From NCBI GenBank assembly GCA_034660015.1, contig JAYEII010000142.1, forward strand, positions 1 to 59,818: DNA of 59,818 nt, given 5' to 3'. The position numbers and the translations under genes are program-made. The first letter of the stretch is position 1. Each line of letters opens with the position of its first letter. Shown piece after piece: positions 1,149-58,081 of the stretch. The notes beneath the pieces are model-generated. The model worked only from the letters and a program-made list of their open reading frames with translations. It was not told the DNA's origin and searched no databases. Origin of the DNA: Methanobacteriota archaeon. Its GTDB lineage: Archaea; Halobacteriota; Syntropharchaeia; Alkanophagales; Methanospirareceae.

Positions 1149-1248
1149 GACACAGATTAACACAGATTAACGCAGATGAAAAAATAACATAGCTAAACAT
1201 GGTAGTAGTATAACAATAAATCCGTGTAAATCTGTGTAAATCAGTGTC
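1149..1248 (+). repeat. A-type hairpin element (left arm GACACAGATTAACACAGATTAACGCAGATG, right arm AAATCCGTGTAAATCTGTGTAAATCAGTGTC)
   Basis: Arms built from 10-nt units are reverse-complementary apart from recurrent mismatches. First of three tandem copies. Confidence 0.9.
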
Positions 1249-1275
1249 TTAAAAAAGAACCAATTAAATTTTATA

Positions 1276-1337
1276 GACACAGATTAACACAGATTAACGC
1301 AGATGAATAAATTAATAAATCCGTGTAAATCCGTGTC
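1276..1337 (+). repeat. A-type hairpin element, short-loop copy
   Basis: GACACAGATTAACACAGATTAACGCAGATG ... AAATCCGTGTAAATCCGTGTC. Confidence 0.9.
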
Positions 1338-1364
1338 TTTCAAGAAAACAGAAAATAAATTACA

Positions 1365-1453
1365 GACACAGATTAACGCAGATTAACACAGATGATAAGA
1401 ACCAACACGGTTAAACTAAAATAAATCTGCGTAAATCCGTGTAAATCTGTGTC
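1365..1453 (+). repeat. A-type hairpin element with canonical loop (ATGATAAGAACCAACACGGTTAAACTAAAATAA)
   Basis: Preceded by the conserved flank AAGAAAACAGAAAATAAATTACAG. The right arm ends GTGTC, 20 nt before ATG 1474. Confidence 0.9.
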
Positions 1454-1473
1454 TTAAAAAAGCCGATTTAAAA

Positions 1474-1860
1474 ATGCCGATGAAAAGTTACAAATATAGG
1501 GCGATAACTGAGAAGATAATTGGAGCAGCCCAAAAAGTACACAATACGCTTGGTTATGACTTTTTAGAGAAAGTATATCAAAATGCGCTCGTTATTGAAC
1601 TTCGAACGCTGGGATTTGATGTGGAAGTGGAACAGCCCATAGCAGTTCAGTATAGAGATGAAATCGTTGGTAATTATGTCGCCGATATTGTCGTCGAAGG
1701 AAAAGTCATTCTCGAAATAAAAGCCGTAAAAGAATTGTCAGAAATTCACGAGGTTCAGCTCGTCAATTATCTTAAAGCAACCGGTATTGAAGTGGGTCTT
1801 CTAATTAACTTTGGTAGGTCTGTAACTGTGAAACGCCGTGTGATGGACAAGAAAAAATAA
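1474..1860 (+). CDS. GxxExxY family protein (PD-(D/E)XK nuclease fold)
   Basis: LGYDFLEKVYQNAL near the N-terminus, ADIVVEGKVILEIKA (D..ExK-type core), QLVNYLKATG and GLLINFG. About 128 aa, the typical size. Confidence 0.85.
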   Translation: MPMKSYKYRAITEKIIGAAQKVHNTLGYDFLEKVYQNALVIELRTLGFDVEVEQPIAVQYRDEIVGNYVADIVVEGKVILEIKAVKELSEIHEVQLVNYLKATGIEVGLLINFGRSVTVKRRVMDKKK

Positions 1861-1866
1861 ATTATT

Positions 1867-1945
1867 GACACAGATTAACGCAGATTAACACAGATGATAA
1901 GAATCAACAATGTTAAACTTAAATAAATCCGTGTAAATCCGTGTC
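1867..1945 (+). repeat. A-type hairpin element
   Basis: GACACAGATTAACGCAGATTAACACAGATG...AAATCCGTGTAAATCCGTGTC. It starts 7 nt after the stop of the GxxExxY gene. Confidence 0.9.
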
Positions 1946-1972
1946 TTAAAAAAGAACCAATTAAATTTTATA

Positions 1973-2112
1973 GACGCGGATTAACACAAACCTTTTTGCA
2001 AGCAAAAAGCTTTACCAAAAAAAATCGTACGTGTTTAGATAACATCTCTGTTTTTCTTTTAGCACAGGTTTTCTTTTTTCTAAAAAGAAAAAGTGTTGTG
2101 TAAATCAGTGTC
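1973..2112 (+). repeat. B-type (long) hairpin element: A-type arms with an inserted low-complexity multi-hairpin core
   Basis: The core ACACAAACCTTT...GCTTTACCAAA...CTTTTAGCACAGGTTTTCTTTTTT..AAAAAGAAAAAGTGTTG is shared with 12088-12225, 26256-26397 and 30559-30736. Confidence 0.85.
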
Positions 2113-7946: not shown

Positions 7947-7970
7947 TGCAACAAGAAAAAATAAATTATT

Positions 7971-8042
7971 GACACAGATTAACGCAGATTAACACAGATG
8001 AAAAAATAAATAAATCCGCGTAAATCAGTGTTAATCCGTGTC
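7971..8042 (+). repeat. A-type hairpin element plus tail
   Basis: GACACAGATTAACGCAGATTAACACAGATG...AAATCCGCGTAAATCAGTGTTAATCCGTGTC, then TTAAATAGAAGGCAGTTATCCTTTATGTACAAT. Confidence 0.9.
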
Positions 8043-8081
8043 TTAAATAGAAGGCAGTTATCCTTTATGTACAATAAAAAA

Positions 8082-8360: not shown

Positions 8361-8407
8361 CTCATCAAAAATTCTGTCTGAACAAAAAGAAAAATAAATT
8401 ATTTATT

Positions 8408-8486
8408 GACACAGATTAACGCAGATTAACACAGATGATAAAACTCAACAATGTTAAACTAAAATAAATCCGCGTAAATCCGTGTC
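8408..8486 (+). repeat. A-type hairpin element plus tail
   Basis: GACACAGATTAACGCAGATTAACACAGATGATAAAACTCAACAATGTTAAACTAAAATAAATCCGCGTAAATCCGTGTC. Confidence 0.9.
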
Positions 8487-8619
8487 TTAAATAGAAGGCA
8501 CTAAGTTATACTTTATGTACAATAAAAAGCAAATACAGATAGTTATTTTTCAGATATTGATAAATTATTTTTTTGCTATACATAACTATTTATGTCATAT
8601 TTAAGAGAATCATATTAAT

Positions 8620-12073: not shown

Positions 12074-12087
12074 AAAAATAAATTTTT

Positions 12088-12225
12088 GACACAGATTAAC
12101 GCAGATTAACACAAACCTTTCTTTCAAAAAGAAAGCTTTACCAAAGAAATTTGTTTTTCTTTTAGCACAGGTTTTCTTTTTTTGAAAAAGAAAAAGTGTT
12201 GCGTAAATCAGTGTAAATCCGTGTC
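12088..12225 (+). repeat. B-type (long) hairpin element plus tail
   Basis: GACACAGATTAACGCAGATTAACACAAACCTTTCTTTCAAAAAGAAAG...AAAAAGTGTTGCGTAAATCAGTGTAAATCCGTGTC. Confidence 0.9.
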
Positions 12226-12281
12226 TCAAATAGAAGGGGGTTATACTTTATATACAATGAAAAAGCAAAGGGGTGAACAAA

Positions 12282-12893
12282 ATGGCATTTACATTTTTCT
12301 TTCGGGATAGGGACACATTAGACCTGGTTTGTGAACTCATATTACCGAAGTTACGCGACAAAAAATATATCAATATATGGGATGCCGGTTGCGCGGATGG
12401 ACCCGAACCATACACTATAGCGATTATGCTTAGAGAGAACATGGGCAATTTCGGGTTCAGGAATATTCGGATATACGCATCGGACATTGATGAGTCAGGC
12501 GATTTTGGAAACGTGGTAAATAAGGGTATATATCCAAATGATGCGATTACACGAGTAGATAAGCGGATATTTGAGAAGTATTTTCTGCCGGTAAACGAAG
12601 ATTTGTGCAGAGTAAAAGAAGAGGTAAGGAAAAGAGTAAGTTATCAGAAGCACAACCTCTTAACTTATGAACCAATAAGGGAAGGATTGAGCCTGATAGT
12701 ATGCAAGAATGTTCTATTGCACTTCAAAGCAGAAGAAAGGATTGAGGTGATAAAAATGTTTCACAAATCTCTGGCTGATTCGGGATTCTTTGTGACGGAA
12801 CAGACACAGAAATTGCCTGATGAGGTCAGTGACCTTTTCACGCCAATAACAAGAAAAGGGCAATTGTTCCAGAAAACAGAAAATAAATTATAG
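12282..12893 (+). CDS. CheR-type SAM-dependent methyltransferase domain protein (lacks the CheR N-terminal helical domain)
   Basis: FFFRDRDTL and WDAGCADGPEPYTIAIML (SAM-binding motif). The last codons ...ENKL* and the TAG stop come from the repeat flank. Confidence 0.7.
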   Translation: MAFTFFFRDRDTLDLVCELILPKLRDKKYINIWDAGCADGPEPYTIAIMLRENMGNFGFRNIRIYASDIDESGDFGNVVNKGIYPNDAITRVDKRIFEKYFLPVNEDLCRVKEEVRKRVSYQKHNLLTYEPIREGLSLIVCKNVLLHFKAEERIEVIKMFHKSLADSGFFVTEQTQKLPDEVSDLFTPITRKGQLFQKTENKL

Positions 12894-12951
12894 ACACAGA
12901 TTAACACAGATGATAAGAATCAATATGGTTAAACTAAAATAAATCTGCGTC
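12893..12951 (+). repeat. A-type hairpin element, single-unit arms
   Basis: GACACAGATTAACACAGATGATAAGAATCAATATGGTTAAACTAAAATAAATCTGCGTC. Confidence 0.85.
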
Positions 12952-12982
12952 TTAAATAGAAGGAAGTTATACTTTGGGTACT
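12951..12982 (+). promoter_or_regulatory. conserved element tail with TATA-like CTTAAATAG; candidate promoter for a leaderless 12983 gene
   Basis: CTTAAATAGAAGGAAGTTATACTTTGGGTACT is followed by ATG. The centre of TTAAATA lies about 27 nt upstream of the ATG. Confidence 0.4.
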
Positions 12983-13573
12983 ATGAAAATAATAAATTTA
13001 ACTGCGCATTCGCGTATATACACCTGCAACGTGTACCTGGTGCGGGGGGATCATAACGCTCTGGCTGACGTTAACACGTTAATTGATGTCGGCAGAGACC
13101 TGGGGGCAATAAGTAACTTGAAGGAAGCATCTACGGGTGTGGGGAAGAAACGGGTTGAACAGGTAATTATAACACACGAGCATTATGACCATGCAGGACT
13201 ATTAGCAGAAATAAAGCGCGAATTCCAACCTCGCGTGTATGCATATAAAAAATCCAAATATGTGGATTACACGGTAAAAGGAGGTGAAAAATTGAAGGTT
13301 GGCGACGGTGAATGTGAGATAATACACTCGCCGGGACATAGCCATGATTCGATTTGCATCTATTGTGAATCAGAGGGTATATTATTCTCTGGCGATACCT
13401 CGTTAGATATAATAACTCCGGGTTGCTACGAGGAATATTACATAAGAACGTTAGAAGAGTTATGCAAAAAGGATATAAGAGTTATTTATCCGGGTCATGG
13501 AGAACCTATGTTTAAAGGAGTGAGGAAAAAGATTCGAGATTCACTGAAAAACGTGACAATGAAATCATTTTAA
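12983..13573 (+). CDS. MBL-fold metallo-hydrolase
   Basis: Contains the HEHYDH metal-binding motif plus downstream His/Asp ligands (SPGHSHD, PGHG). Confidence 0.8.
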   Translation: MKIINLTAHSRIYTCNVYLVRGDHNALADVNTLIDVGRDLGAISNLKEASTGVGKKRVEQVIITHEHYDHAGLLAEIKREFQPRVYAYKKSKYVDYTVKGGEKLKVGDGECEIIHSPGHSHDSICIYCESEGILFSGDTSLDIITPGCYEEYYIRTLEELCKKDIRVIYPGHGEPMFKGVRKKIRDSLKNVTMKSF

Positions 13574-13744: not shown

Positions 13745-13872
13745 AACCACAGATTACACAGATTAACACAGATGAGGCACAGTCGAATTTTATAGTGAAA
13801 TTGCTAAATCCTTAAATTCCACCGCAGAGCAAGCACACAGAGAACTAAAATAAATCTGCGTAAATCAGTGTC
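13745..13872 (+). repeat. A-type variant whose left arm starts AACCACAGATTACACAGATTAACACAGATG, with inserted loop modules
   Basis: The loop carries the ATAGTGAAATTGCTAAATCC...CCACCGCAGAGCA module, also found at 22364-22425 and 57925-57965. The right arm is AAATCTGCGTAAATCAGTGTC. Confidence 0.8.
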
Positions 13873-13931
13873 TTAAATAGAAAGAGGATATACTTTATAT
13901 ACAAGGATAAAAAGAAATATAAAGTTATAAG

Positions 13932-15169: not shown

Positions 15170-18034
15170 ATGGTTGAACAAAAAGAAAAATACAAAATTA
15201 TGGTAATAGCTATCCTTTTAGCTGGCGCCTGCTTTCTCACTTTTTATTTCCATGTGACACGTGAAACCGGCACTGTTTTCACTCACTTCTTTTATGTTCC
15301 TATTATCTTAGCCGCCTTGTGGTGGAGAAGAAAAGGTTTGGTGGTGGCGATATTTTTAGCGGCATTGCTGGTTCTTAGCCACCACACTTTTCCTAGAGAG
15401 TATGTGGACCCTGCCAATGATTATCTTCGAGCTATTATGTTTATAGTTATTGCTGGGGTAGTTGCTGCGTTAAGTGAGAGGATTGCAAAGGCACAAGTGA
15501 AAGTTACCCATCTTAATCTCATCCTGCGCTCAATACGAAACGTCAACCAGCTCATAGCCATGGAGAAGAACCGCGATAGGCTGCTTAAAGGCGCTTGCGA
15601 GAGGCTCACAGAGACTCGCGGCTATCATAACGTCTGGATTGCTCTGTTAGATGAGTCAGTAGGACTTGTGACGACCGCCGAAGCCGGTTTGGGCGAGGAC
15701 TTCTTGCCCATGGTCGAGCGGCTGAAGCGTGGCGAGCTGCCCGCTTGCGGGCAGAGGGCACTGAGTGAACCGGGTATTGTGGTCACCCAAGACCCGCTCT
15801 CCACCTGCACTGACTGCCCACTGGCGGGGAAGTATGACGACAGGTGGGCGATGACCATCAGGTTGGAACACGGTGGAACGCTCTACGGTCTGTTGTGTGT
15901 CTCCATCCCCGGAGAGCTTACCGCAGATGAGGAAGAGCGAGCATTGTTCAAAGAGGTTGCCAGCGACCTTGCCTTCGCACTGCACAGTATAGAACAGGAG
16001 GAAGAGCGCAAGAAGGCGGAGGAGGAACTAAAAAAAGAGAAGAAATTCTCAGAAAATATTATAACCACCGTCCCGGATTCTTTGATCGTTGTAGATAAGG
16101 ATTTGCGGATAAAGACAGCGAATCTATCCTTCTACCAGGTATTTCAACTGGACCCGGAAAAGGTAGTAGGATGCAGCATAACCGATATTCTGGGAGATGA
16201 GGGAGGAAAACTCAGCACTGAACTGACTAAATTGCTCGGAACCAAAACTTCAGTAGAGAACCTTGAGCTGCATTATCATTCAGAAAAGTCGGGTGAGCGG
16301 ATATTCAGTATCTCTGCGAGAGGAATAATAGTTACCGAAGGAGAAGGAGAAGAGGAAGAAGTATTGGTTGTGATAGGAGATGTCACGAGGCGCAAGCATA
16401 CGGAGGATGCGCTGCTGGAATCGGAAGAGAAATATAGGACCCTTTCAGAGTCACTACCTGACCCGGTATTCGAGATAGATTCGGCAGGAAAAGTCATCTA
16501 TTTAAATAGGGCTGCTCTCGATACCTTCGGTCGTTCCGGGGAAGAAATCCTTAGCGGTGGTGTTCGGCTAAACAATGTGATAGCTGAAAGTGAGTTGGAA
16601 GCTGCAAGAACGAATCTCGGCGAAATTATAAAAGGAAAGAGCCACGTGGGAGAAAGAACTTTTGTCCGTAAGGATGGGAGTAGATTTGTTGGCGAGGTTC
16701 ATGCCGGTCCCCTCTACAAGGGAAAGAGGATTATTGGAGCAAGAGGTGTTATCAGAGACATCACCGAGCGGAAGAAAATGGAGGAGGCGCTGCGTCGGTT
16801 CAGCGAAGAGCTGGAATTGAAGGTAGAAGAGCGAACGGAAGAATTAAAGAAAGAGCGAGACTACACACGCCATTTGATGGAGTCCTCGCCAGATTTTCAA
16901 TTGACGGTGGATAAAGAAGGAAAGATAATGGATGTGAATGAGGCATTTGAGAATGTTGTTGGTAAGAGTCGTGATATTATTATTGGTTGCTCTATTTACG
17001 AATATCTACCGAAGGAGGAGACTGAGAAGGCGATTGCAGAGATATTTGAGAAGAAAAAGGTCAGGGATATAGAATTAACGGCAAATATACCGGAAAAGGG
17101 AGTTTTAATCTGGAACGTCTCGGGCACGGTATTTACCTCGCAGGAAGGAGAGAACAGTATTTATATCACAGGCAGGGATTTGACAGAGCGGAGACGGGCG
17201 GAAGAGGAATTGAGAGCAAAAGAGATGCAGCTTGTTCATGCAGGAAGACTGTCTTCTCTTGGCGAGATGGCTACGGGAATAGCTCATGAGATAAACCAGC
17301 CTTTAACCGTAATCTCTATGGCTGCGGAAGGCACATTAAGAGATATAGAGAAAAAACGAGTGGATATGAGTGCGCTTCCTAAGGACTTGGAAGACATAAT
17401 GAAAAATGTAAAGCGAATAGACAAGATTATCACACACATGCGCACTTTTGCGAGGAAGACAGTGGAAATAAGAGCTGTAAAACCCGAAGAAGTGCTGAAC
17501 AATGCTTTTATCTTGCTTGGCGAGCAGTTCAAGACACATGCCATTTTAGTCGCTCAAGAAATAGCTACGAATTTGCCTCACATCATGGTGGACTCGAATC
17601 AATTAGAGCAGGTATTTATAAATATATTGACAAATGCGAGGCAAGTGTTAGATGAGCGAGAAGAGGAAGCAAAAAAGGAGGGAGAGACTTTTAAGAAAAG
17701 ATTGGTATGCAGAATTTCAAGAGAAAGAGAAAAAGAAAAAGAACACGAGTGGGTGGTGTATGAATTTGCAGATAATGCTTATGGCGTGCCGGAAGAGCTA
17801 AAAACGAGAGTGTTTGAACCTTTCTTTACGACAAAAGAGATTGGCGAAGGCACGGGTTTGGGACTTTCTATCGCTTATGGCATTGTAACTCGTTCGTTGA
17901 GGGGAAAGATATGGGTAGAGGATAATGAAGCAGGAGGAGCAAGTTTTAAGGTCGCGATACCGGTAGCGAATAAAGAAACCACAAGATTACACAAGATTAA
18001 CACAGAAGAAAGAAAACAAGAAAATAGAAAATAA
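15170..18034 (+). CDS. membrane-associated GAF/PAS multi-domain sensor histidine kinase
   Basis: N-terminal TM helices, a GAF-like region and about 3 PAS domains separated by D(I/V)T(E/R)RK linkers. HisKA box HEINQPL and HATPase_c (GEGTGLGLSIAYGIV). The last ~20 codons are repeat-derived. Confidence 0.85.
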   Translation: MVEQKEKYKIMVIAILLAGACFLTFYFHVTRETGTVFTHFFYVPIILAALWWRRKGLVVAIFLAALLVLSHHTFPREYVDPANDYLRAIMFIVIAGVVAALSERIAKAQVKVTHLNLILRSIRNVNQLIAMEKNRDRLLKGACERLTETRGYHNVWIALLDESVGLVTTAEAGLGEDFLPMVERLKRGELPACGQRALSEPGIVVTQDPLSTCTDCPLAGKYDDRWAMTIRLEHGGTLYGLLCVSIPGELTADEEERALFKEVASDLAFALHSIEQEEERKKAEEELKKEKKFSENIITTVPDSLIVVDKDLRIKTANLSFYQVFQLDPEKVVGCSITDILGDEGGKLSTELTKLLGTKTSVENLELHYHSEKSGERIFSISARGIIVTEGEGEEEEVLVVIGDVTRRKHTEDALLESEEKYRTLSESLPDPVFEIDSAGKVIYLNRAALDTFGRSGEEILSGGVRLNNVIAESELEAARTNLGEIIKGKSHVGERTFVRKDGSRFVGEVHAGPLYKGKRIIGARGVIRDITERKKMEEALRRFSEELELKVEERTEELKKERDYTRHLMESSPDFQLTVDKEGKIMDVNEAFENVVGKSRDIIIGCSIYEYLPKEETEKAIAEIFEKKKVRDIELTANIPEKGVLIWNVSGTVFTSQEGENSIYITGRDLTERRRAEEELRAKEMQLVHAGRLSSLGEMATGIAHEINQPLTVISMAAEGTLRDIEKKRVDMSALPKDLEDIMKNVKRIDKIITHMRTFARKTVEIRAVKPEEVLNNAFILLGEQFKTHAILVAQEIATNLPHIMVDSNQLEQVFINILTNARQVLDEREEEAKKEGETFKKRLVCRISREREKEKEHEWVVYEFADNAYGVPEELKTRVFEPFFTTKEIGEGTGLGLSIAYGIVTRSLRGKIWVEDNEAGGASFKVAIPVANKETTRLHKINTEERKQENRK

Positions 18035-18040
18035 ATTATA

Positions 18041-18215
18041 GACACAGATTAACGCAGATTAACACAGATGAAAAAAATCAACAATGTTAAAGAACAAGAA
18101 AATTTTTGATGATCGGACGCAGATGACCGCAGATAATCAGGATTTTAAATATAAGGCATTTGATTGATAATTTGAGGAAATAGTTTTCTGCGTAAATCCG
18201 CGTAAATCTGCGTCC
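18041..18215 (+). repeat. composite element: A-type left arm plus complete C-type hairpin (18115-18215) plus tail
   Basis: GACACAGATTAACGCAGATTAACACAGATG..., then GGACGCAGATGACCGCAGATAATCAGGATTTTAAA...TTCTGCGTAAATCCGCGTAAATCTGCGTCC. Confidence 0.85.
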
Positions 18216-18437
18216 TAAATAGGTAGAAGTTATACTGTATATACAAAAATAAATCCGTGTAATCTGTGGTTAATAAGATTAACAAAAATAGATAATTAAA
18301 TTTCAATTACTTGTAATTTTCTTTCAACTATTTAGCAATATTTTTGGGATTATAAAAAAGTTTTTAAGAGAAGTTAGCAATATTTTCACTAAGCCTTGTG
18401 TAAAAACCTGTGTAATCGGTGTAATCTGTGGTCGAAA

Positions 18438-19238
18438 ATGAAAATACTAATTGTGGATGACGAAATTGCAATTTGTCTGCGTTTACAGCGAGAACTGGAG
18501 AAAGAAGGTCATGAAGTTTACTATGAGACCTCGCCTCTCGGTGTCCTGGAAGAATTAAAGAGAGCAAGGAGAGAAAACAAGCCATACGATCTTTTGCTCC
18601 TTAACATCCAGATGCCCGGGATGAATGGACTCACCTTGTTTTCTCGCATCCGAGAAGAGCGTTTGGGCGTTGAAGCTATCATTATGACCGGGTATCAAGA
18701 CGAGCAGGTAGTAATCGAGGCTATTCGGTTGAGTGTAAAAGACTACCTGAACAAGCCCATTTCCTTACAGGAACTCTATGCTTCGGTGTCTCGTGCAGAA
18801 GAGAAGTTAATCGAGGCAAATTTTAATAACGGAAAGCATCGGATACTGGTAATAGATGATGAGAGGGAGTTATGCACGAGGATAAAGCGAGAGTTAGATA
18901 AGGAAGGGTATAAGGTAGTAGTAGCTTATAATGGGCAGGACGGTCTGGATTACTTTGAACGTCACCATGTGGACATGTTGATTGTGGACGTTAGAATGCC
19001 GGTGATGAGTGGTTTAGAGTTGATAGAGAAATGCAGGCAGCGTACCGATGATTTCGTTTCTATTATCATCACAGGTCATGGAGACCATGAGATAGCGAAA
19101 GAGGCGTTGAAACTGGGTGTTTATGATTATTTGAAAAAACCGATTTCATTGGACAAACTCATTACTTCAGTGAAGAAAGGGATTGAGCAATTAAATGTTC
19201 GGCGTGGCGGCAGGGAAAAGGCATTCGAGAAAAAATAA
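18438..19238 (+). CDS. tandem double-receiver (REC-REC) response regulator
   Basis: Two CheY-like domains (MKILIVDDE...LLNIQMPGMNG...KP and HRILVIDDE...VDVRMPVMSG...KP). It is a paralog of the N-terminus of 19694..22300. Confidence 0.85.
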   Translation: MKILIVDDEIAICLRLQRELEKEGHEVYYETSPLGVLEELKRARRENKPYDLLLLNIQMPGMNGLTLFSRIREERLGVEAIIMTGYQDEQVVIEAIRLSVKDYLNKPISLQELYASVSRAEEKLIEANFNNGKHRILVIDDERELCTRIKRELDKEGYKVVVAYNGQDGLDYFERHHVDMLIVDVRMPVMSGLELIEKCRQRTDDFVSIIITGHGDHEIAKEALKLGVYDYLKKPISLDKLITSVKKGIEQLNVRRGGREKAFEKK

Positions 19239-19244
19239 TTTATA

Positions 19245-19353
19245 GACACAGATTAACGCAGAGGCACTATCTAAAAATATAGTGATTTATCACCGCGGAG
19301 AGCGCAGAGTTTTAAAATCCTCTAAACTCGCTTAATCCGTGTTAATCCGCGTC
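19245..19353 (+). repeat. A-type hairpin element with an S-type loop module
   Basis: GACACAGATTAACGCAGAGGCACTATCTAAAAATATAGTGATTTATCACCGCGGAGAGCGCAGAGTTTTAAAA...TTAATCCGTGTTAATCCGCGTC. Confidence 0.8.
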
Positions 19354-19412
19354 TTAAATAGAAGGAAGTTATACTTTATGTTACGATAAATAAGAACTAA
19401 TTATATATAGTC

Positions 19413-22300: not shown

Positions 22301-22324
22301 GAATAAAAAGAAAAATAATTTATA

Positions 22325-22699
22325 GACACAGATTAACGCAGATTAACACAGATAAACACAGATAGTGAAATTGCTATATCCCCAAAATTCACCGCAGAGC
22401 ACACGGAGACCGCAAAGGCAAAACAAAAAAATAAATTGTTGACACAGATTAACGCAGATTAACACAGATGATAAAAATCAACAATATCAAACTTAAATAA
22501 GTCCGCGTAAATCAGTGTAAATCTGTGTCTTAAATAGAAGGAAGTTATACTTTATATACAACCAGAAAGCCTAAACAATGATTGGAACCGTCTTAAAACT
22601 CTGCGTACTCTGCGCTCTCCGCGGTGATAAATCACTTGATTTTTAGACTGTGCCCGTTCAACGTAAGTAAATCTGCGTAAATCAGTGTTAATCCGTGTC
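22325..22699 (+). repeat. nested mosaic of repeat modules (outer A-type arms enclosing a complete inner A-type element at 22441-22529 plus T- and S-type modules)
   Basis: Left arm at 22325-22360, T module at 22364-22425, complete element with tail at 22441-22563, reversed S module at 22588-22655, right arm at 22667-22699. Confidence 0.8.
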
Positions 22700-35927: not shown

Positions 35928-35980
35928 GCGTTAATCTGTGTCAACAATATATTTACTATTTTCTTGTGGAATCACCCTTT

Positions 35981-37345: not shown

Positions 37346-37434
37346 CATAGAAATACTTAAAGTTTATCGGTCAAATGTAATAAAAACTTACCGATGTATT
37401 TTCACTTTCATCTCCATAGTATATAAGATAACAA

Positions 37435-37520
37435 GACACTGATGGATTTTTTCTTTTTTTGTTGGACTGGGCTAACGGCATTGCTCTTTTTATCTGCGTT
37501 AATCAGTGTTAATCTGTGTC
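37435..37520 (-). repeat. A-type element (degenerate right arm) in minus orientation, upstream of the decayed ATPase gene
   Basis: The minus strand reads GACACAGATTAACACTGATTAACGCAGAT...CCGTTAGCCCAGTCCAACAAAAAAAGAAAAAATCCATCAGTGTC. Confidence 0.75.
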
Positions 37521-37530
37521 TATAAAATTT

Positions 37531-37603
37531 AATTTTTATTTCAAATATCTTCAATAAAATTACAAATAACAGATAAAAAATTTTATCCCTACGAAAGGTT
37601 TTT
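37531..37603 (+). promoter_or_regulatory. conserved ~73-bp upstream block shared with 41082-41157; contains the inverted repeat GATAAAA-AA-TTTTATC
   Basis: AATTTTTATTTCAAATATCTTCAATAAAATTACAAATAACAGATAAAAAATTTTATCCCTACGAAAGGTTTTT is about 90% identical to the block upstream of the poly-HAMP MCP. Confidence 0.5.
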
Positions 37604-45604: not shown

Positions 45605-45730
45605 AAACACGAAAAATCCCAAATTCCCAAAAAGAAACCACGAGATTTCACAACACTTTTTTTTTTTTACAAAAAGAAAACCTGTGCTAAAAGAAAAACT
45701 AAGGGAATGTTTTTAGTCAAGGTTTTTACT

Positions 45731-45772
45731 AAGCCCTTACAGGGCTTGCGGGGTCGTGGGGTGGAACCCCAC
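45731..45772 (+). repeat. H-type GC-rich double-hairpin module
   Basis: AAGCCCTTACAGGGCTTGCGGGGTCGTGGGGTGGAACCCCAC. It is preceded by a reversed fragment of the B-type core (45650-45715). Confidence 0.7.
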
Positions 45773-45844
45773 ATAGGTAAAAAAGTTGTGTGAAAATCTG
45801 TGTAATCTTGTGGTTAAAATCAGTTCAGGGGGTGTAAAAAGAAA

Positions 45845-47193: not shown

Positions 47194-47218
47194 AGAGATG
47201 AACAAGAAATAAATTATT

Positions 47219-47302
47219 GACACAGATTAACACAGATGATAAAAGTCAACAATGTCTGTCAAACTAAAATAAATCTGCGTAAATCCGTGTTAATCTGCGT
47301 CC
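47219..47302 (+). repeat. A-type hairpin element inside the che operon (between cheY and cheB)
   Basis: GACACAGATTAACACAGATGATAAAAGTCAACAATG...AAATCTGCGTAAATCCGTGTTAATCTGCGTCC, followed by TAAATAGAAGG. ATG 47332 lies 30 nt after the hairpin. Confidence 0.9.
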
Positions 47303-47331
47303 TAAATAGAAGGATGGGATTTTGAAGAGGA

Positions 47332-53836: not shown

Positions 53837-53955
53837 AGTATACCTCGTGCATTAAGAGATAAGAAACCAATGTTGATATAAAAAACTATCTTATATAGGA
53901 ATATTTTTTACAAATAAACCCTTTGAACAAAAAACAAAAAGAAAAATAATTTATT

Positions 53956-54044
53956 GACACAGATTAACGCAGATTAACACAGATGATAAAAATTAACAAT
54001 GTTCAACGTAAATAAATCCGCGTAAATCCGTGTTAATCAGTGTC
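53956..54044 (+). repeat. A-type hairpin element plus variant tail
   Basis: GACACAGATTAACGCAGATTAACACAGATGATAAAAATTAACAATG...AAATCCGCGTAAATCCGTGTTAATCAGTGTC, then TTAAATAGAAGGCAGTAATCTGTGAAATCTGTGGTTATAAA and ATG 54086. Confidence 0.9.
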
Positions 54045-54085
54045 TTAAATAGAAGGCAGTAATCTGTGAAATCTGTGGTTATAAA

Positions 54086-55120: not shown

Positions 55121-55252
55121 TTAATATTTGATTTCCTCACTGTGGGAGTCATACTTTGGCATTCTTTGCAGATAAATCCACTGGTCAAAAGTAGATTTTG
55201 GAATATTCAAAGCATTCATTATCTCCTCTCTTGAAGCACCTCTCCTTCTCAT
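55121..55252 (-). CDS. short HTH-like ORF (43 aa), possibly a remnant of an IS or regulator
   Basis: MRRRGASREEIMNALNIPKSTFDQWIYLQRMPKY resembles a helix-turn-helix. It is below the track length cutoff and is weak. Confidence 0.25.
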   Translation of the reverse strand: MRRRGASREEIMNALNIPKSTFDQWIYLQRMPKYDSHSEEIKY

Positions 55253-55353
55253 CTCCAAAGCTTGTAAAATCTGCCACGAGTTCTTACCTTAAAGTTTACA
55301 TTGATTTTATTTTTTACACACGGCTTATAACCTGACTTTCAGAGTTGTATAGG

Positions 55354-56303
55354 CTACAACCCGAAAAGCATATCCGCAAACCCCAACTTTTCGATAATCT
55401 CCTTTTGCTCTTTAGTGAGAACGGAAATTTTATCATGCCGTTCGCCCCCAACATCAAGCGTAGTTTTTCGTATTCTGCCCAGTTCATCCAGACTATCTTC
55501 AACACCTTCCCAACCCGTAACGCCTAAATGATGCTTGTACAGCGCCAGAACCAGATATGCAAGATAGCAGATAAAAATATAAATTTCGTCAATGTTTCCT
55601 TCCTCAAAATGCCTTACCGGCTGCATATCTAACCCGTTTTTGAAGCAATCGAATATCTTTTTCAATCGTGCCGTGCGTTCTCTCTCAAGATCGCTGTGAT
55701 TGAAGCAAATAATCGCCCTGCCAGGAATGTCAAACAGCGATGTAGCGATGTCTTCGTAATAGATTAGACCTAAGGGACGCATTAACTCATTTTCTTCGGA
55801 TATATCCCCCACTACAAGCTCTTTAGCCTCATTGGACGTTAAAGGGATGCCACCAATTATTTTCAGGCCATCTCCATCCAGCTTTATTAAATTATTCCTT
55901 GACGCCATCCCACGATCAAGAATTATCGCATCAATGCGGAAGTCTATCCGTTTAACATCTGCAACAAGTTGTTCTACCGTCCTCACATCCGTTACATTTC
56001 CCTCATACGTCCTGAAAAGGACGGGTAGACCTTTGTTCTTTGTTGCGACCAATCCGATGTTTATCTGGGGTCATCCCGGTTGTATCCGAGTCACGCTTTA
56101 GGCAATTTTGTCGAATAAAAATACGTGGAGGTGATGTCATAGATCAAGGTGCTCGTTTCTGTCTCAAGATGCTTTATTCTGTTGAACAGCTCAACGCACA
56201 CGTCCACGATACCTCCGGAGCCTATTTTACTGCCGGTCTTCATGACCGCACCAAGATTGCTGGAGTTTAGTTTCTCGGGAGTGATGCCGATGAGTTCTTG
56301 CAT
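55354..56303 (-). mobile_element. degraded IS4/IS1634-like DDE transposase gene (frameshifted and truncated)
   Basis: Fragment 56091..56303 carries LIYDITSTYFYS (first D region). Fragment 55354..56052 carries AIILDRGMASRNN (second D region). They are in different frames and together are much shorter than a full transposase. No inverted ends were identified. Confidence 0.6.
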
Positions 56304-56352
56304 TTCATGGGGAGGAGGATAAGGGAATAAGTTCCCCGATATTCATTGAGTA

Positions 56353-56889
56353 TCAACCCGAAATGTTCTGTTTTTCAATTTGACCATTCTTAAGGAAGGC
56401 ATGAACTATTTTTACTTCTACATTTTTCATTACCACACTGAAAAAGTGAAGCCTCTCTTTGTAATTCCCTCTATATTTATCTATGTGGGTATGAAGTGTC
56501 CCTATATTAATGAAAATGCCAAGAGGATACTCTAATTCTTTAAACATAACGTCTAACTTATAAAAATCTTCCCCTACTTTCTTTAATGTTGCATTCTTCT
56601 TGAATGCAAATACAACAAGGTTGTTTTTAGAAGTATTGGCTAATCCACTGATTTCTGTAGGTATATGAACTATAAGATCTGGTCGTTGTCCCGTTCCGTG
56701 TTCATTCAGTCTCTTTTGATATTCCTCTTCGAGGATTGCATCATCTGGAAATATTCCCTTATCATCCATAACCTCATACATAGCACAGGCAAATCGACCT
56801 TGATATCCTCTCTCGGTTTTAAAGAAACGTGGATTGTTCACTTTCTTCAATGCTTCAATTATAATCTCAATTACAATATTTGTGTCCAT
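56353..56889 (-). CDS. hypothetical protein (AT-rich cassette, downstream gene)
   Basis: 178 aa with no family I can name. QRPDLIVHIP ... NLVVFAFKKN weakly resembles a PD-(D/E)XK core. Confidence 0.4.
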   Translation of the reverse strand: MDTNIVIEIIIEALKKVNNPRFFKTERGYQGRFACAMYEVMDDKGIFPDDAILEEEYQKRLNEHGTGQRPDLIVHIPTEISGLANTSKNNLVVFAFKKNATLKKVGEDFYKLDVMFKELEYPLGIFINIGTLHTHIDKYRGNYKERLHFFSVVMKNVEVKIVHAFLKNGQIEKQNISG

Positions 56890-56927
56890 TTATACTATCT
56901 CTCTTTTTCGCCCTGTCCGCGCCACAC

Positions 56928-57410
56928 TCAGACTAAAAGTCCGAGTATCCGTTTCAGACTCCTTTTTTTTTGATACACACCAAAAAGTTGTTTGAACTTA
57001 TTTTCAAAATCTTCTTGTTCTATCTCCTTATTAAAATATTTGCCTAAAGCAATTACTATTTGTTTAAATTTGTCCGGCGGAAGCTTACTTTTTATTTGGT
57101 TAATGAGATATAAGGAAACAACAAGGCAAGAAGTAGGATCTTCAGGATTTTCATGGTCAATTGTCAATACAAGAGCATCTTCCAAAGGATCTATAACTAC
57201 TTTATTTTCAGGGTTGAATTTACTCGTAATGCCTGTGTAAAAGCATTTAAAACAGCTTTCTTTTTTCTCCTTGTCTTTATGAGAATACGCTTTTTTTAAT
57301 GCTTTTCTAACTTCTTTCATTGAGTATCTTGTATCATTCTGATATTTACTTACAACTTTATTACATGCTTCACAAGATAGAGTCTCTAAAAAAAATGTTC
57401 TCCTCCGCAT
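56928..57410 (-). CDS. putative HNH-like (beta-beta-alpha-Me, zinc-finger) nuclease (AT-rich cassette, upstream gene)
   Basis: Two CxxC pairs (CEAC, CFKC), LTIDHENPED and LINQIKSK fit a Cys4 HNH pattern. The assignment is tentative. Confidence 0.4.
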   Translation of the reverse strand: MRRRTFFLETLSCEACNKVVSKYQNDTRYSMKEVRKALKKAYSHKDKEKKESCFKCFYTGITSKFNPENKVVIDPLEDALVLTIDHENPEDPTSCLVVSLYLINQIKSKLPPDKFKQIVIALGKYFNKEIEQEDFENKFKQLFGVYQKKRSLKRILGLLV

Positions 57411-57549
57411 ATATCTCCCTCATTCATCTTCACTCTTTTTCCACACCTGTTATTCCAACCACTTTAGAACCTGCATTATGTTGTTGACATAACGATACAT
57501 AAAATCTTTTTGATTCCCGATTTTGTTAATACCACAATAGAAGAAGAAA

Positions 57550-57915
57550 ATGGCAATAAGTTTTCAGGTAATCTACGTGCTGTGGCTCAGAGAGATGAAA
57601 GGGATGTGGAGAACAAAGAGCAGAGTTGTTGGTGCGTTAGGAATGCCGATATTCTTCCTCGCGTTTCTCGGATTAGGTTTTGGGCATGCATCTATTCCGG
57701 GAATACCGGCAGGGATAAACTATATCGAGTTTCTCACACCCGGGATAATAGGGATGACCATACTTTTCAGTTCGATGTTCGCAGGCATTTCCGTTCTCGA
57801 GGATAAGGAGTTTGGATTTCTTAAGGAGGTGATGGTGGCACCGGTATCGAGAGTTTCTATTGGAATGGTAAGCATAAGTTCTTATTTATTCGCGAGTACT
57901 GAGGTGGAAAGATAA
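57550..57915 (+). pseudogene. N-terminal fragment of an ABC-2 type transporter permease
   Basis: VLWLREMKGMWRTKSRVVGALGMPIFFLAFLGLGF...LTPGIIGM...LEDKEFGFLKEVMVAPVSR is typical of the first ~105 aa. The frame then degenerates and stops. There is no cognate ATPase gene upstream. Confidence 0.65.
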
Positions 57916-57988
57916 ATCTATTTGTTAAATTCCACCGCAGAGCACACGGAGACCGCAAAGGCACCAGAAAGAATAATTTTTGATAATC

Positions 57989-58081
57989 GGACGCAGATGA
58001 ACGCAGATAATCAGGATTTTAAAGTTAAATGTAAGGCATTTGATAATTTGAGGAAATAGTTTTCTGCGTAAATCGGCGTCC
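57989..58081 (+). repeat. C-type hairpin element
   Basis: GGACGCAGATGAACGCAGATAATCAGGATTTTAAAGTTAAATGTAAGGCATTTGATAATTTGAGGAAATAGTTTTCTGCGTAAATCGGCGTCC. It is preceded by a T-type module at 57925-57965. Confidence 0.85.

What the first reader, a model, noticed from the sequence alone, without database searches (positions are those of the whole stretch)
1149..58081. Gene-punctuating hairpin repeat family with CACAGATTAAC-type arms: about 30 copies in 60 kb
Almost every intergenic gap carries the same modular element. It has five parts. (1) A conserved 5' flank, AAAATAAATTATAGACACAG. (2) A left arm of 1-3 tandem 10-nt units (GATTAACRCA). (3) A variable loop, often ATGATAAGAATCAACAATGTTAAACTAAAATAA. 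(4) A right arm of complementary 10-nt units (GTAAATCYGT or GTTAATCYGT) ending in GTGTC. (5) A conserved non-palindromic tail, TTAAATAGAAGGNAGTTATACTTTATATACAAT. I found full or partial copies starting at 1149, 1276, 1365, 1867, 1973, 6351, 7211, 7971, 8408, 12088, 12893, 13745, 18041, 19245, 22325, 22441, 22667, 24075, 26256, 26832, 27370(-), 27469(-), 27565(-), 28984(-), 30559, 32241(-), 36650(-), 37435(-), 47219, 53956 and 57989. With about two exceptions (32121-32276 and the isolated arm at 28984) the element is co-oriented with its genes: the left arm sits next to the upstream stop codon and the tail next to the downstream start. This holds for the copies serving minus-strand genes as well. 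The density, the strict polarity and the conserved asymmetric flanks suggest a reusable terminator/insulator-plus-promoter cassette or an RNA processing signal, not a randomly decaying MITE. I do not recognise it as a described family.
Basis: seen in the sequence. Interest (0 to 1): 0.85.

Follow-up and report, generated by a model that had tools for sequence, protein, structure and literature searches.

The report
Promoter-carrying hairpin repeats in ANME-1 archaea
The window comes from a methane-oxidising ANME-1 archaeon whose gene gaps are filled with a real, undescribed family of small hairpin repeats; these look like stripped-down copies of a tiny mobile cassette that normally carries a GxxExxY nuclease gene, and many of them carry what looks like an archaeal promoter pointing at the next gene.

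Summary
About 33 full or partial copies lie in the window. All 27 covariance-model hits fall in the ~19% of the window that is non-coding. The arm motif occurs 79 times against 1.4 expected by chance.

The host is an ANME-1/Methanophagales archaeon: the window carries archaellum, chemotaxis and F420 genes. Near-identical copies occur in many ANME-1 MAGs.

Comparison with orthologous loci shows filled and empty sites, even between relatives at 98% identity. The elements are therefore gained and lost.

The same arms bracket GxxExxY (PDDEXK_3) nuclease genes in archaea and in bacteria (Planctomycetota, Anaerolineae, Desulfobacteraceae). Matching inverted unit arrays flank 33 of 76 metagenomic GxxExxY loci. 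The short loop of the window copies keeps the start and stop junctions of that ORF. I read the family as ORF-less, MITE-like derivatives of a GxxExxY mini-cassette.

The conserved tail begins with TTAAATAG. Start codons cluster 31-42 nt after the arm, which fits an archaeal TATA box driving leaderless mRNAs. This is inferred, not shown.

There is no archaeal oligo-T terminator on the sense strand (10 of 101 copies), but one is common on the antisense strand (77 of 101). This may explain the polarity. Polarity is strong in the window (22:3) and weaker elsewhere (35:20).

Verdict: a new variant of a known kind (MITE/REP/Correia-like). Interest is moderate to high.

The parts
1135..1260 (+). Copy 1: 5' flank plus hairpin 1149-1248 (3+3 units, atypical loop), followed by the hairpin-to-hairpin linker TTAAAAAAGAACCAATTAAATTTTATA
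   Evidence: model hit 87 bits
1262..1350 (+). Copy 2: hairpin 1276-1337 (3+2 units, minimal loop)
   Evidence: 74.6 bits
1351..1465 (+). Copy 3: type-A hairpin 1365-1453 (3+3 units). RNA fold -30.5 kcal/mol, z = -8.1
   Evidence: 129 bits
1474..1860 (+). GxxExxY (PDDEXK_3, TIGR04256) nuclease gene, the cargo or presumed partner of the arm family. It is bracketed by copies 3 and 4. Its last codons (GACAAGAAAAAATAA) together with the next bases (ATTATT) resemble the conserved 5' flank seen at other copies
1853..1957 (+). Copy 4: type-A hairpin 1867-1945 (3+2 units) plus linker
1973..2112 (+). Copy 5: type-B loop between degenerate arms. The right arm abuts the native sequence TTAAAGAATATTT, which is also present in L119 and L117
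6337..6478 (+). Copy 6: hairpin 6351-6439 plus full tail. The site is empty in L116 (98%), L117, L118 and L119
7211..7451 (+). Copy 7: composite of an A-type left part, a nested inner hairpin (module C, 7302-7426) and a tail cut at ...ACTTTAA. Absent in L117, L118 and L119. L116 has module D in place of the left part
7957..8081 (+). Copy 8: hairpin 7971-8042 plus tail; ATG at +40
8394..8530 (+). Copy 9: type-A hairpin 8408-8486 plus tail
12074..12258 (+). Copy 10: type-B hairpin 12088-12225 plus tail. A Shine-Dalgarno-like GGGGTG and the ATG at +57 follow
12879..12985 (+). Copy 11: hairpin 12893-12951 (2+1 units) plus tail. The upstream ORF stops at the TAG formed at the flank/arm junction. 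The downstream ATG is at +32
13745..13931 (+). Copy 12: AACCAC-type left arm, module-D loop, right arm and tail; ATG at +60
18027..18250 (+). Copy 13: composite with nested module C (18116-18214) plus tail
19231..19390 (+). Copy 14: hairpin 19245-19353 with a module-D-like loop, plus tail
22311..22420 (+). Copy 15: left arm (4 units) plus module D; no right arm
22427..22565 (+). Copy 16: type-A hairpin 22441-22529 plus full tail
   Evidence: 131 bits
22600..22735 (+). Copy 17: inverted module D, right arm (to 22699) and tail; ATG at +49
24061..24171 (+). Copy 18: hairpin 24075-24137 plus tail. The ATG of the response-regulator gene (MTKVRILIVEDE) is at +32. The upstream ORF ends inside the element
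26242..26437 (+). Copy 19: type-B hairpin 26256-26397 plus tail; ATG (MEYTILLVDDE) at +38. The upstream ORF stops at the junction TAG
26825..26966 (+). Copy 20: hairpin 26832-26954, no tail, lying between convergent genes
27359..27456 (-). Copy 21 (minus): its GTGGTT-type end lies 5 nt before the ATG of the minus-strand response-regulator gene 26969-27364
27457..27554 (-). Copy 22 (minus): in tandem with copy 21, joined by the linker
27565..27590 (-). Right-arm remnant (minus)
28984..29010 (-).
30559..30736 (+). Copy 23: long type-B hairpin, no tail
32180..32290 (-). Copy 24 (minus): left arm plus module D, anti-oriented to both neighbouring + strand genes (a true exception)
35930..35942 (-). 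Solitary left-arm unit (minus) next to a GC-rich palindromic module
36604..36703 (-). Copy 25 (minus): 5' flank plus a 4-unit left arm that runs directly into small minus-strand ORFs
37415..37534 (-). Copy 26 (minus): hairpin with a variant tail TTGTTATCTTATATACTATGG
45640..45815 (+). Degenerate composite: AACCAC...GTGGTT-type arms, inverted module B and a GC-rich palindrome.
47205..47331 (+). Copy 27: hairpin 47219-47301 plus a tail truncated after CTAAATAGAAGGAT. The cheB ATG is at +31. The site is filled in L111; L112, L114 and L115 have 17-56 nt there, with relic-like strings
53942..54085 (+). Copy 28: type-A hairpin 53956-54044, tail start and an extra GTGGTT-type unit. The cofC ATG is at +42
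   Evidence: 134 bits
57968..58092 (+). Copy 29: module-C hairpin alone (57990-58080), preceded by module D

Best explanation
The repeats are a modular family of non-autonomous, MITE-like elements of ANME-1 archaea. They derive from a minimal cassette with this layout: left arm (2-3 short tandem units), a roughly 125-aa GxxExxY PD-(D/E)XK nuclease gene, then a right arm (the inverted units).

Shown:
- The copies are intergenic.
- They are present or absent at orthologous sites, even between close relatives.
- They vary in unit number and in inner modules.
- They share their arms, and the ATG-side and stop-side junctions of the loop, with GxxExxY-bearing cassettes. Those cassettes occur in archaea and in bacteria.

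Inferred:
- The copies are spread or maintained in trans, by the GxxExxY nuclease acting on the arms or by host recombination at the hairpins.
- They are tolerated because of their design. Read in the sense direction they contain no oligo-T termination signal, so operon transcription runs through them.
- Their 20-30 bp imperfect stem sits at the 3' end of the upstream message.
- In about half of the copies, the tail supplies a TATA box (TTAAATAG, right after the right arm) that starts a leaderless or short-leader mRNA about 31 nt downstream, at or just before the next gene's ATG.
- Inverted insertions would place oligo-T tracts and an outward promoter against the host operon and would be purged. 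That would produce the observed polarity.
For: Reality and spread:
- 79 arm hits against 1.4 expected.
- About 28 model hits in the window.
- 67 or more strong hits, many near-identical (115-131 bits), in MAGs from different studies.

The host is archaeal, of the ANME-1 group: ArlH/FlaI/FlaJ, CheA, CofC, with closest named relatives Methanophagales and Ca. Methanospirareceae.

Gain and loss:
- The copy after flaJ is absent in L116 (98%), L117, L118 and L119.
- The composite at 7211-7451 is absent in L117, L118 and L119, and is rebuilt with another module in L116.
- The 1-kb cluster 1139-2111 corresponds to 22 nt in L119.
- Relatives at 77-89% identity have no model hit over 13-20 kb, whereas L116 has about 10.

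Link to GxxExxY:
- The window's only GxxExxY gene sits in the densest cluster.
- Arms bracket the gene in L100, L021, L035, L123 and L124.
- In 76 metagenomic loci with GC 0.30-0.64, 33 have at least 2 forward units upstream and at least 2 reverse units downstream. Background windows reach this in 2 of 101 cases.
- An inverted flank match of score 12 or more is found in 41 of 76 loci against 9 of 76 after permutation.
- The type-A loop reads ACACAG|ATGATAA...AAAATAA|ATC. This is the same pair of junctions as in the full-length L124 element.

Promoter:
- The tail is conserved across MAGs, and 78 of 85 distal tail modules lie next to a right arm.
- ATGs cluster at +31/32 and +38-42.
- Native promoters of relatives place TTTATATA-type boxes 21-24 nt before the ATG.

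No sense-strand terminator: T runs of 5 or more occur in 10 of 101 copies on the sense strand against 77 of 101 on the antisense strand.

Polarity and location.
Against: - No target-site duplication or precise, constant ends were found. The tail is cut at different points in different copies.
- No enzymology exists for GxxExxY, and the window has a single copy of the gene.
- At some 'empty' sites there are relic-like strings (L112, L115, L116). Some differences may therefore be deletions rather than insertions.
- The shared loop junctions are short (7 and 9 nt).
- TATA1 lacks a recognisable BRE (the native ones show CGAAA). A second, better TATA match (TTTATATA at +22-29) is too close to most ATGs.
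- There are no transcript data.
- No compensatory changes support an RNA structure: 0 covarying pairs.
- Polarity outside the window is only about 64%, measured with crude ORF calls.
Confidence: 0.6

Rival explanations
1. Domesticated regulatory cassette. The 10-nt units are binding sites for a host DNA-binding regulator, arrayed as inverted pairs just upstream of a shared promoter. The family would then be a regulon-wide control module for motility, chemotaxis and signalling genes rather than a selfish element.
For: The window's copies sit in front of archaellum, chemotaxis, response-regulator and histidine-kinase genes. The tail and arms are strongly conserved across MAGs. Single-unit relics next to a TATA-like string persist at the cheB site in relatives.
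Against: Downstream genes elsewhere are unrelated in function (cofC, a metallo-beta-lactamase, a GNAT acetyltransferase, AAA_14 ATPases). Copies stack in tandem with no gene between them (1149-1453). Unit periods in sister families are 8, 9 or 10 nt, so helical phasing is not conserved. Sites are filled or empty between 98% relatives. The same arms bracket a mobile nuclease gene in bacteria.
Confidence: 0.12
2. The element is primarily an RNA-level signal. The long imperfect stem is an RNase III-type processing or stabilising site that cuts polycistronic transcripts at gene borders, as in 23S rRNA intervening sequences and Correia elements. The DNA repeats spread because this function is useful.
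For: Stems of 20-30 bp fold well (-18 to -38 kcal/mol, z from -4.9 to -8.1). An ANME-1 relative encodes RNase III (L118 20251-20750). The window's two 23S_rRNA_IVP genes sit inside the same kind of unit-array inverted repeats. IVS stems are known RNase III substrates (PMC4990558), and CREE binds RNase III (PMC2649163).
Against: There are no compensatory substitutions. Every unit carries fixed A.A and frequent A.C mismatches on the sense strand, and the antisense strand folds slightly better. Many copies lack one arm (22325, 28984, 36657). There are no transcript data.
Confidence: 0.12
3. REP/BIME-like or IS200/IS605-derived (PATE) elements, mobilised as single-stranded hairpins by a Y1 (HUH) transposase or RAYT encoded elsewhere in the genome.
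For: The palindromes are imperfect and have a fixed strand asymmetry. The composition is mosaic and the location is intergenic. There is no target-site duplication. A-rich flanks on both sides (AATAAA) could be a target or cleavage motif. Orientation bias is typical of ssDNA transposition.
Against: No Y1_Tnp, RAYT or TnpB gene was found in the window among the ORFs scanned, nor among the called genes listed for L111-L123; the other loci were not scanned. There is no GTAG-type head. The element has true terminal inverted repeats built of tandem units, whereas IS200/IS605 ends are not inverted repeats. The gene found between the arms is a PD-(D/E)XK protein.
Confidence: 0.05
4. A chromosomal integron-like cassette array. 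The hairpins would be attC-type recombination sites (GATTAAC resembling R'' RYYYAAC, and GTTAATC resembling R' GTTRRRY) that punctuate gene cassettes, as VCRs do in Vibrio and as in the recently reported archaeal integrons.
For: The repeats are gene-punctuating, co-oriented imperfect palindromes of 60-140 nt. The cores differ from the attC consensus at only one position each. Distribution crosses the domains.
Against: No integrase was found in the window among the ORFs scanned, nor among the called genes listed for L111-L123. The 'cassettes' are syntenic core operons (flaH-I-J, cheY-B-A-C-D) that are conserved without repeats in relatives. Copies occur on dozens of separate contigs per MAG, in tandem without ORFs, and in both orientations. 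Arms have 1-3 units rather than the R-L box geometry. Cassettes in integrons are promoterless, whereas here a promoter-like tail is present.
Confidence: 0.02

Closest known systems
Correia repeat enclosed elements (CREE) of Neisseria
   Same: Both are small (about 100-150 bp), very abundant intergenic elements with terminal inverted repeats. Both can supply outward promoters to neighbouring genes and form transcript hairpins; in CREE these are bound or cut by RNase III (PMC2649163). Both show presence/absence differences between close strains.
   Different: CREE are bacterial with sigma-70 promoters, have 26-bp TIRs that are not built of tandem units, duplicate TA on insertion and carry an IHF site. 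No partner gene is known for them. The elements here are archaeal, have a TATA-type tail on one side only, show no target-site duplication, and share their arms with a nuclease-gene cassette.
REP/BIME elements with RAYT transposases (Enterobacteria, Pseudomonas)
   Same: Both are imperfect palindromes with a fixed asymmetry. Both are assembled into mosaics with other short motifs, sit just after stop codons, and have one dedicated small gene flanked by the same repeats.
   Different: REPs are 20-40 nt single palindromes with a GTAG/GTGG head, and their partner is a Y1/HUH transposase. Here the arms are arrays of 10-nt units, the stems are 20-30 bp, and the partner candidate is a PD-(D/E)XK protein. 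No RAYT was found.
BOX elements of Streptococcus pneumoniae
   Same: Both have a modular build with a variable number of an internal or arm unit. Both are intergenic and form stable transcript structures (PMC3049150).
   Different: The modules are unrelated in sequence. BOX elements are bacterial, have no associated ORF and no TATA-type tail.
23S rRNA intervening sequences carrying an S23p / four-helix-bundle ORF
   Same: Both have a small selfish ORF enclosed by inverted repeats that form a long stem; in the IVS this stem is cut by RNase III (PMC4990558). The window itself has two such ORFs (PF05635) enclosed by unit-array inverted repeats.
   Different: Classical IVSs sit inside rRNA helices. 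Here the cassettes and their ORF-less derivatives sit between protein-coding genes, the ORF is a PD-(D/E)XK nuclease, and an archaeal promoter-like tail is attached.
Archaeal MITEs (Sulfolobus SM1-SM4, Haloquadratum, Halobacterium)
   Same: Both are non-autonomous multi-copy elements of archaea, thought to arise by internal deletion of an autonomous element (review PMC10969869).
   Different: Those MITEs derive from IS elements with DDE transposases and have target-site duplications. No ANME or methanogen family of this kind is listed in the review, and the candidate parent here is not an IS.

Membership tests
MITE (miniature inverted-repeat transposable element) | Terminal inverted repeats | tested here: met
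   GACACAGATTAAC...GTWAATCYGTGTC arms; 92.6% of stem cells are paired in 13 copies
MITE (miniature inverted-repeat transposable element) | Small, non-coding, multi-copy, with insertion polymorphism | tested here: met
   60-220 nt; about 33 copies in 60 kb; filled and empty orthologous sites
MITE (miniature inverted-repeat transposable element) | Target-site duplication of fixed length | tested here: not met
   Four filled/empty comparisons show no consistent duplication. Only a possible AATAA(A)G microhomology appears at the flaJ site, and the tail ends at variable points
MITE (miniature inverted-repeat transposable element) | An autonomous parent element with the same termini that encodes a transposase | tested here: inconclusive
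   The same arms bracket GxxExxY genes, but GxxExxY is not a known transposase. The IS in the window (55354-56052) has unrelated ends
REP/BIME-RAYT system | Conserved GTAG-type head on a 20-40 nt imperfect palindrome | tested here: not met
   Arms start with GACAC and consist of 10-nt tandem units
REP/BIME-RAYT system | RAYT (Y1/HUH transposase) gene flanked by the repeats | tested here: not met
   No Y1_Tnp hit among the window ORFs scanned or among the called genes of the related loci. Only part of one genome was seen
Integron attC array | IntI tyrosine recombinase and attI next to the array | tested here: not met
   No integrase domain in any scanned ORF of the 60-kb window or of the syntenic loci
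Integron attC array | R''-L''/L'-R' box geometry with RYYYAAC / GTTRRRY cores at the outer borders | tested here: not met
   GATTAAC and GTTAATC each differ by one base from the cores, are repeated 1-3 times at 10-nt spacing, and are not outermost, because GACAC and GTGTC lie outside them
Integron attC array | Repeats delimit mobile single-gene cassettes confined to one array | tested here: not met
   The repeats flank conserved core operons and occur on dozens of contigs per MAG
IS200/IS605-derived PATE | Subterminal hairpins without terminal inverted repeats; TnpA(Y1) or TnpB partner | tested here: not met
   The element has true TIRs, and no TnpA or TnpB was found
23S-IVS-type selfish cassette | Small ORF enclosed by inverted repeats that form a long stem | tested here: met
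   Met for the full-length form: L100, L123, L124, L151, L149, L152 and L180, and 33 of 76 loci. The window copies lack the ORF
23S-IVS-type selfish cassette | Located in an rRNA helix and excised from the transcript by RNase III | tested here: not met
   All copies lie between protein-coding genes. RNase III cleavage cannot be tested here, although an rnc gene exists in the relative L118
Archaeal BRE/TATA promoter (the tail) | A/T-rich TATA box with its 3' end about 21-24 nt upstream of the start point (for leaderless genes, the ATG) | tested here: met
   TTAAATAG lies at +1..8, and ATGs cluster at +31/32 (6 cases) and +38-42 (14 cases). Native promoters show a spacing of 21-24 nt from TATA end to ATG
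Archaeal BRE/TATA promoter (the tail) | Purine-rich BRE immediately upstream of the TATA box | tested here: not met
   Upstream of TATA1 lies the arm end ATCYGTGTC. Native promoters of relatives show CGAAA(A)
Archaeal BRE/TATA promoter (the tail) | Primary transcript 5' ends at the predicted position | not testable with these tools
Archaeal intrinsic terminator | Oligo-T tract (5 or more T) on the transcribed sense strand at the gene's 3' end | tested here: not met
   Present in 10 of 101 copies (4 of 75 short copies) on the sense strand, against 77 of 101 on the antisense strand. The exceptions are mainly type-B loops

The most novel reading that the evidence does not exclude
GxxExxY (PF13366) genes, and in parallel the 23S_rRNA_IVP four-helix-bundle genes (PF05635), may be the cargo or engine of a previously unrecognised, cross-domain class of minimal selfish cassettes. 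Their ends are inverted arrays of 8-10-nt units of the (C)AC(R)GAT(T) type.

In this reading the arms form a long stem that lets the cassette sit harmlessly between genes or inside rRNA. The roughly 125-aa PD-(D/E)XK protein would act on the arms, as a structure-specific nuclease, a homing-type nuclease or a transposase, to spread the cassette.

In ANME-1 this system would have produced a burst of ORF-less miniatures. These acquired an archaeal promoter and now drive a sizeable fraction of the host's genes. Related copies in the syntrophic partner clade (Desulfobacteraceae) and in co-occurring Planctomycetota would point to exchange between the domains.
Probability: 0.3. Interest if true: 0.85.

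Novelty: new variant of a known kind. Interest (0 to 1): 0.66.

Why it matters
- ANME-1 archaea are uncultured key players in marine methane oxidation, and almost nothing is known about their promoters, operon structure or mobile DNA. In some lineages this repeat occurs about once every 2 kb. If it carries a ready-made promoter, a large share of those lineages' genes is transcribed from mobile DNA. Element gain and loss between 98% relatives would then rewire expression.
- The family also offers a handle on a function for GxxExxY/PDDEXK_3. This protein family has thousands of members, is mixed between Bacteria and Archaea (PMC3424549), and has no known role. Here it is shown to sit inside inverted unit-array cassettes in 40% or more of sampled loci.
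- On the practical side, the repeats break assemblies, because many copies lie at contig ends, and they can mislead binning across the domains.
- The tail is a candidate portable archaeal promoter.

Tried and rejected
- Rfam. At gathering thresholds only a group II intron fragment is found. In permissive mode on 1100-2250 only sub-threshold hits to eukaryotic miRNA/snoRNA-type models and a few bacterial RNA models appear; the best is mir-1954 at 28 bits against its gathering score of 99. All are consistent with chance.
- Literature. Searches for the sequence, for ANME-1 repeats, for GxxExxY and for PDDEXK_3/IVP returned nothing relevant.
- The IS as parent. The IS fragment at 55354-56052 has ends that do not resemble the arms.
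- Integron and RAYT/IS200 readings. No integrase or Y1 gene was found.
- RNA covariation. There are 0 compensatory pairs, so the test is uninformative for young repeats. The first automatic model had no base pairs and was replaced by one with a stated structure.
- AlphaFold model of the GxxExxY protein. Mean pLDDT was 55.6, too poor for a fold search. The PDB sequence search gave only a marginal hit to a CroV protein.
- Exact look-ups of window FlaI and of P0254 found no contig.
- Pfam on the 334-aa partner ORF of the bacterial two-gene cassette, and on small ORFs near elements, gave no family.
- Helical phasing of the units as evidence for a DNA-binding array was rejected, because sister families use periods of 8, 9 and 10 nt.

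Full report

Yes. Reading 1000-2300 shows five elements in a row. The arm motif GACACAGATTAAC with up to 2 mismatches occurs 79 times against 1.41 expected, and 0 of 100 shuffles reach that number. Printing all candidate loci with their flanks confirms every coordinate in the finding and the five-part anatomy.

An alignment of 13 short copies has 73% mean column identity, with invariant arms. A covariance model with a stated 25-bp stem finds 45 hits, which reduce to about 28 distinct loci: 23 on the + strand and 5 on the - strand. It separates the two strands well, for example 134 against 46 bits.

The tail is present in 15 copies. Other copies end in a recurrent 27-nt linker or abut native DNA.

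**2. Whose genome is it?**

The window encodes ArlH/FlaH, FlaI and FlaJ, a Halobacteria-type CheA, a weak CheF-arch match (E 2e-4, below the Pfam cut-off), CofC and CobT. It is therefore archaeal. The closest named homologues are 'Methanophagales archaeon' and 'Candidatus Methanospirareceae', that is, ANME-1.

Most come from ANME-1/Methanophagales MAGs and some from MAGs labelled Syntrophoarchaeum, Methanosarcinales or Methanoperedens. Fourteen come from bacterial MAGs: 13 Planctomycetota (Phycisphaerae, Pirellulales, Sedimentisphaerales) and one Anaerolineae.

In the archaeal contigs the model finds at least 67 strong copies. Many are nearly identical to the window's copies, at 115-131 bits.

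**3. Location and polarity**

About 81% of the window is coding, yet 27 of 27 model hits lie outside ORFs. In the other archaeal loci 65 of 67 do.

In the window the downstream gene is co-oriented in 22 cases against 3, and the upstream gene in 20 against 5. In the other loci the figures are 35 against 20 and 33 against 21, and 30 against 10 for copies that carry the tail. These counts use crude ORF calls. Polarity is therefore real, but it is not strict across the family.

**4. The elements come and go**

Using CheB and FlaH as anchors I fetched orthologous loci at 98, 95, 89, 87, 82, 81 and 77% protein identity.

- (a) After flaJ the window has TATT, a hairpin and a full tail. L116 (98%), L117, L118 and L119 have only 24-40 nt at that site. 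L117 reads ggataaTAAAG|AGAAAGATAAGGAGG.
- (b) The composite at 7211-7451 corresponds to 0-17 nt in L117, L118 and L119. In L116 its left part is replaced by another module.
- (c) The cheY-cheB copy is present in L111. L112, L114 and L115 have 17-56 nt there. Two of these contain relic-like strings, such as CTGTAAATCCATTAAATAGGAGA.
- (d) The 1-kb cluster between the flagellin-like gene and flaH (five hairpins plus a GxxExxY gene) corresponds to 22 nt in L119. In L117 degenerate arms bracket two unrelated small ORFs instead.

Relatives at 77-89% identity have no model hit over 13-20 kb, whereas L116 has about ten. No constant target-site duplication was seen, and the tail ends at different points in different copies.

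Unit numbers in the left and right arms vary: 3+3 in 28 copies, 3+2 in 27, 2+2 in 13 and 2+3 in 13. This is as expected from slippage.

**5. Where the arms come from**

In the bacterial loci the motif lies next to GxxExxY (PF13366/TIGR04256) genes. In L100 the gene lies between a left arm and an inverted right arm. In L021 and L035 inverted arms bracket a two-gene unit between housekeeping genes.

The window's only GxxExxY gene (1474-1860) sits in the densest cluster. It has many homologues at 88-96% identity on different contigs. It also has homologues at 75% identity in Desulfobacteraceae Eth-SRB2. That contig is genuinely bacterial and also carries ORF-less hairpins between its genes.

L123 and L124 show the full-length form with the window's own arm type.

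In 80 metagenomic loci encoding relatives at 53-93% identity, with GC 0.30-0.64:

- The two flanks share an inverted repeat of score 12 or more in 41 of 76 loci, against 9 of 76 after permutation.
- 33 of 76 loci have at least 2 forward units upstream and at least 2 inverted units downstream, against 2 of 101 background windows.

The units differ between loci (CACGGATTNA, ACAGGATNN, CGCAGATTN), but the plan is the same: TTTAGAC, 2-3 units, the ORF, 2-3 inverted units, then GTCTAAA.

The common short loop of the window copies reads ACACAG|ATG ATA AGA ... AAA TAA|ATC. It is a 10-codon remnant that shares the start-side junction (ATGATAA) and the stop-side junction (AAATAA|ATC) with L124. I therefore read the window's elements as internally deleted, ORF-less derivatives of a GxxExxY cassette. 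The junction matches are short, so this step is an inference.

**6. What the parts could do**

*Hairpin.* The RNA folds have energies of -18 to -38 kcal/mol, with z from -4.9 to -8.1. The stems are interrupted every 4-5 bp. Across 101 oriented copies the left arms read GATTAAC 183 times and GATTTAC 0 times. The right arms read GTAAATC 141 times and GTTAATC 15 times. Each unit therefore carries a fixed A.A mismatch. There are no compensatory changes, so selection on an RNA structure can be neither shown nor excluded.

*Terminator.* Archaeal intrinsic terminators are oligo-T tracts (established knowledge). Only 10 of 101 copies have a T run of 5 or more on the sense strand, against 77 of 101 on the antisense strand. 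The element is therefore not a canonical terminator for the upstream gene. It would be polar if inverted, which is a simple selective reason for the observed polarity.

*Tail.* Across MAGs the tail reads TTAAATAGAAGGAAGTTATACTTTATATACAAT(A)5-7ATG. Of 85 distal tail modules, 78 lie next to a right arm. Start codons cluster at +31/32 (for example MTKVRILIVEDE at 24169, and cheB), at +38-42, and in a minor group at +51-53.

In element-poor relatives the native promoters show (CGAAA)-TTTATATA-type boxes ending 21-24 nt before the ATG, that is, leaderless genes. TTAAATAG at +1..8 ends 23 nt before an ATG at +32, which fits. It lacks a BRE, however. The better-looking TTTATATA at +22..29 is too close to most ATGs.

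Where a native promoter remains downstream, as at flaH, the copy has no tail. The promoter function is thus well motivated but unproven.

**7. Comparison with known systems**

The family works most like Correia elements: TIRs, outward promoters and RNase III-bound hairpins (PMC2649163). It also resembles REP/BIME mosaics, and its full-length form resembles ORF-bearing 23S rRNA intervening sequences (PMC4990558).

It fails defining features of each known family:

- MITEs: no target-site duplication and no transposase.
- REP/BIME: no GTAG head and no RAYT.
- Integrons: no IntI and no R/L box geometry. The 'cassettes' are core operons that are conserved without repeats in relatives.
- IS200/IS605: no Y1 transposase or TnpB.

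A 2024 review of prokaryotic MITEs lists no ANME or methanogen family. Steczkiewicz et al. list PDDEXK_3 as of unknown function, with mixed bacterial and archaeal clades.

**8. Verdict**

It is partly wrong: there is no sense-strand terminator, and the element is MITE-like.

The most interesting by-product is the general association of GxxExxY genes, and of the window's two IVP genes, with inverted unit-array arms in both domains. This suggests a class of minimal selfish cassettes whose mechanism is unknown.

Noticed in passing
window 35-566 and 52447-53010: Two 23S_rRNA_IVP (four-helix-bundle, PF05635) genes (154-534 on +, 52591-52995 on -) are each enclosed by inverted arrays of other short units. 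The first has about 13 CAGGATRC units upstream and ATCCTGTATCATGTATC... downstream. The second has AAATTTCAAA/ATTGC-type units. The second cassette is present in L114, absent in L115 (an 8-nt gap), and reduced to a relic in L112.
   Followed up: partly
L118 20251-20750: An ANME-1 relative (FlaH 81% identical) encodes a bacterial-type RNase III (PF14622/PF00636), which is uncommon in archaea. It is relevant to possible processing of the long stems.
   Followed up: no
window 58671-58781 (-): Rfam hit to group II intron domains D1-D4 (RF02012, 40.4 bits). No full reverse-transcriptase ORF is evident nearby, so this is probably an intron fragment or an ORF-less intron.
   Followed up: no
window 55354-56052 (-): A truncated DDE_Tnp_1 transposase ORF (IS remnant). 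Its ends do not resemble the hairpin arms.
   Followed up: yes
window 22748-24109, 27711-28991, 30798-32120: Three paralogous AAA_14 + DUF4143 ATPase genes lie within 10 kb, each bordered by elements. The first reads 34 nt into the element at 24075.
   Followed up: no
window 35860-35930, 45735-45775, 54900-54960: A further repeated GC-rich palindromic module (…CCCTTTCAGGGCTTGCGGGGACGTGGGCAGAGCCCAC…) occurs three times, each time joined to arm units. It belongs to the mosaic but its origin is unknown.
   Followed up: no
L204 (IMGVR_UViG_3300031999_000182) and L205: The double-unit arm pattern occurs three times on one IMG/VR contig of 24.8 kb and once on another of 35.7 kb. No full model hit was found there. 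These could be ANME-1 viruses or plasmids carrying arms, or misclassified host DNA.
   Followed up: partly
L122 (JICM01000142.1, 'Acinetobacter sp. ETR1'): A 2.7-kb contig of an Acinetobacter assembly carries a GxxExxY gene 75% identical to the window's. It is preceded by the archaeal-type distal tail (AAGTTATACTTGATATACTATG), followed by the ANME-type right arm, and lies next to an IS110 transposase. It looks like a contaminant contig or a recent transfer.
   Followed up: no
window 41220-44090: A 956-aa methyl-accepting chemotaxis protein contains seven HAMP_2 repeats. Self-similar DNA with a period of about 273 nt gives many staggered BLAST hits to L111.
   Followed up: no
L117 7480-7565, L118 8720-8796: Even the element-poor relatives keep an older, degenerate copy upstream of the flagellin-like gene: a module-B-like palindrome plus GAGAATCTGTGTAATCTGGTGGTT. 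This suggests the family has resided in ANME-1 for a long time, with layers of different age.
   Followed up: no
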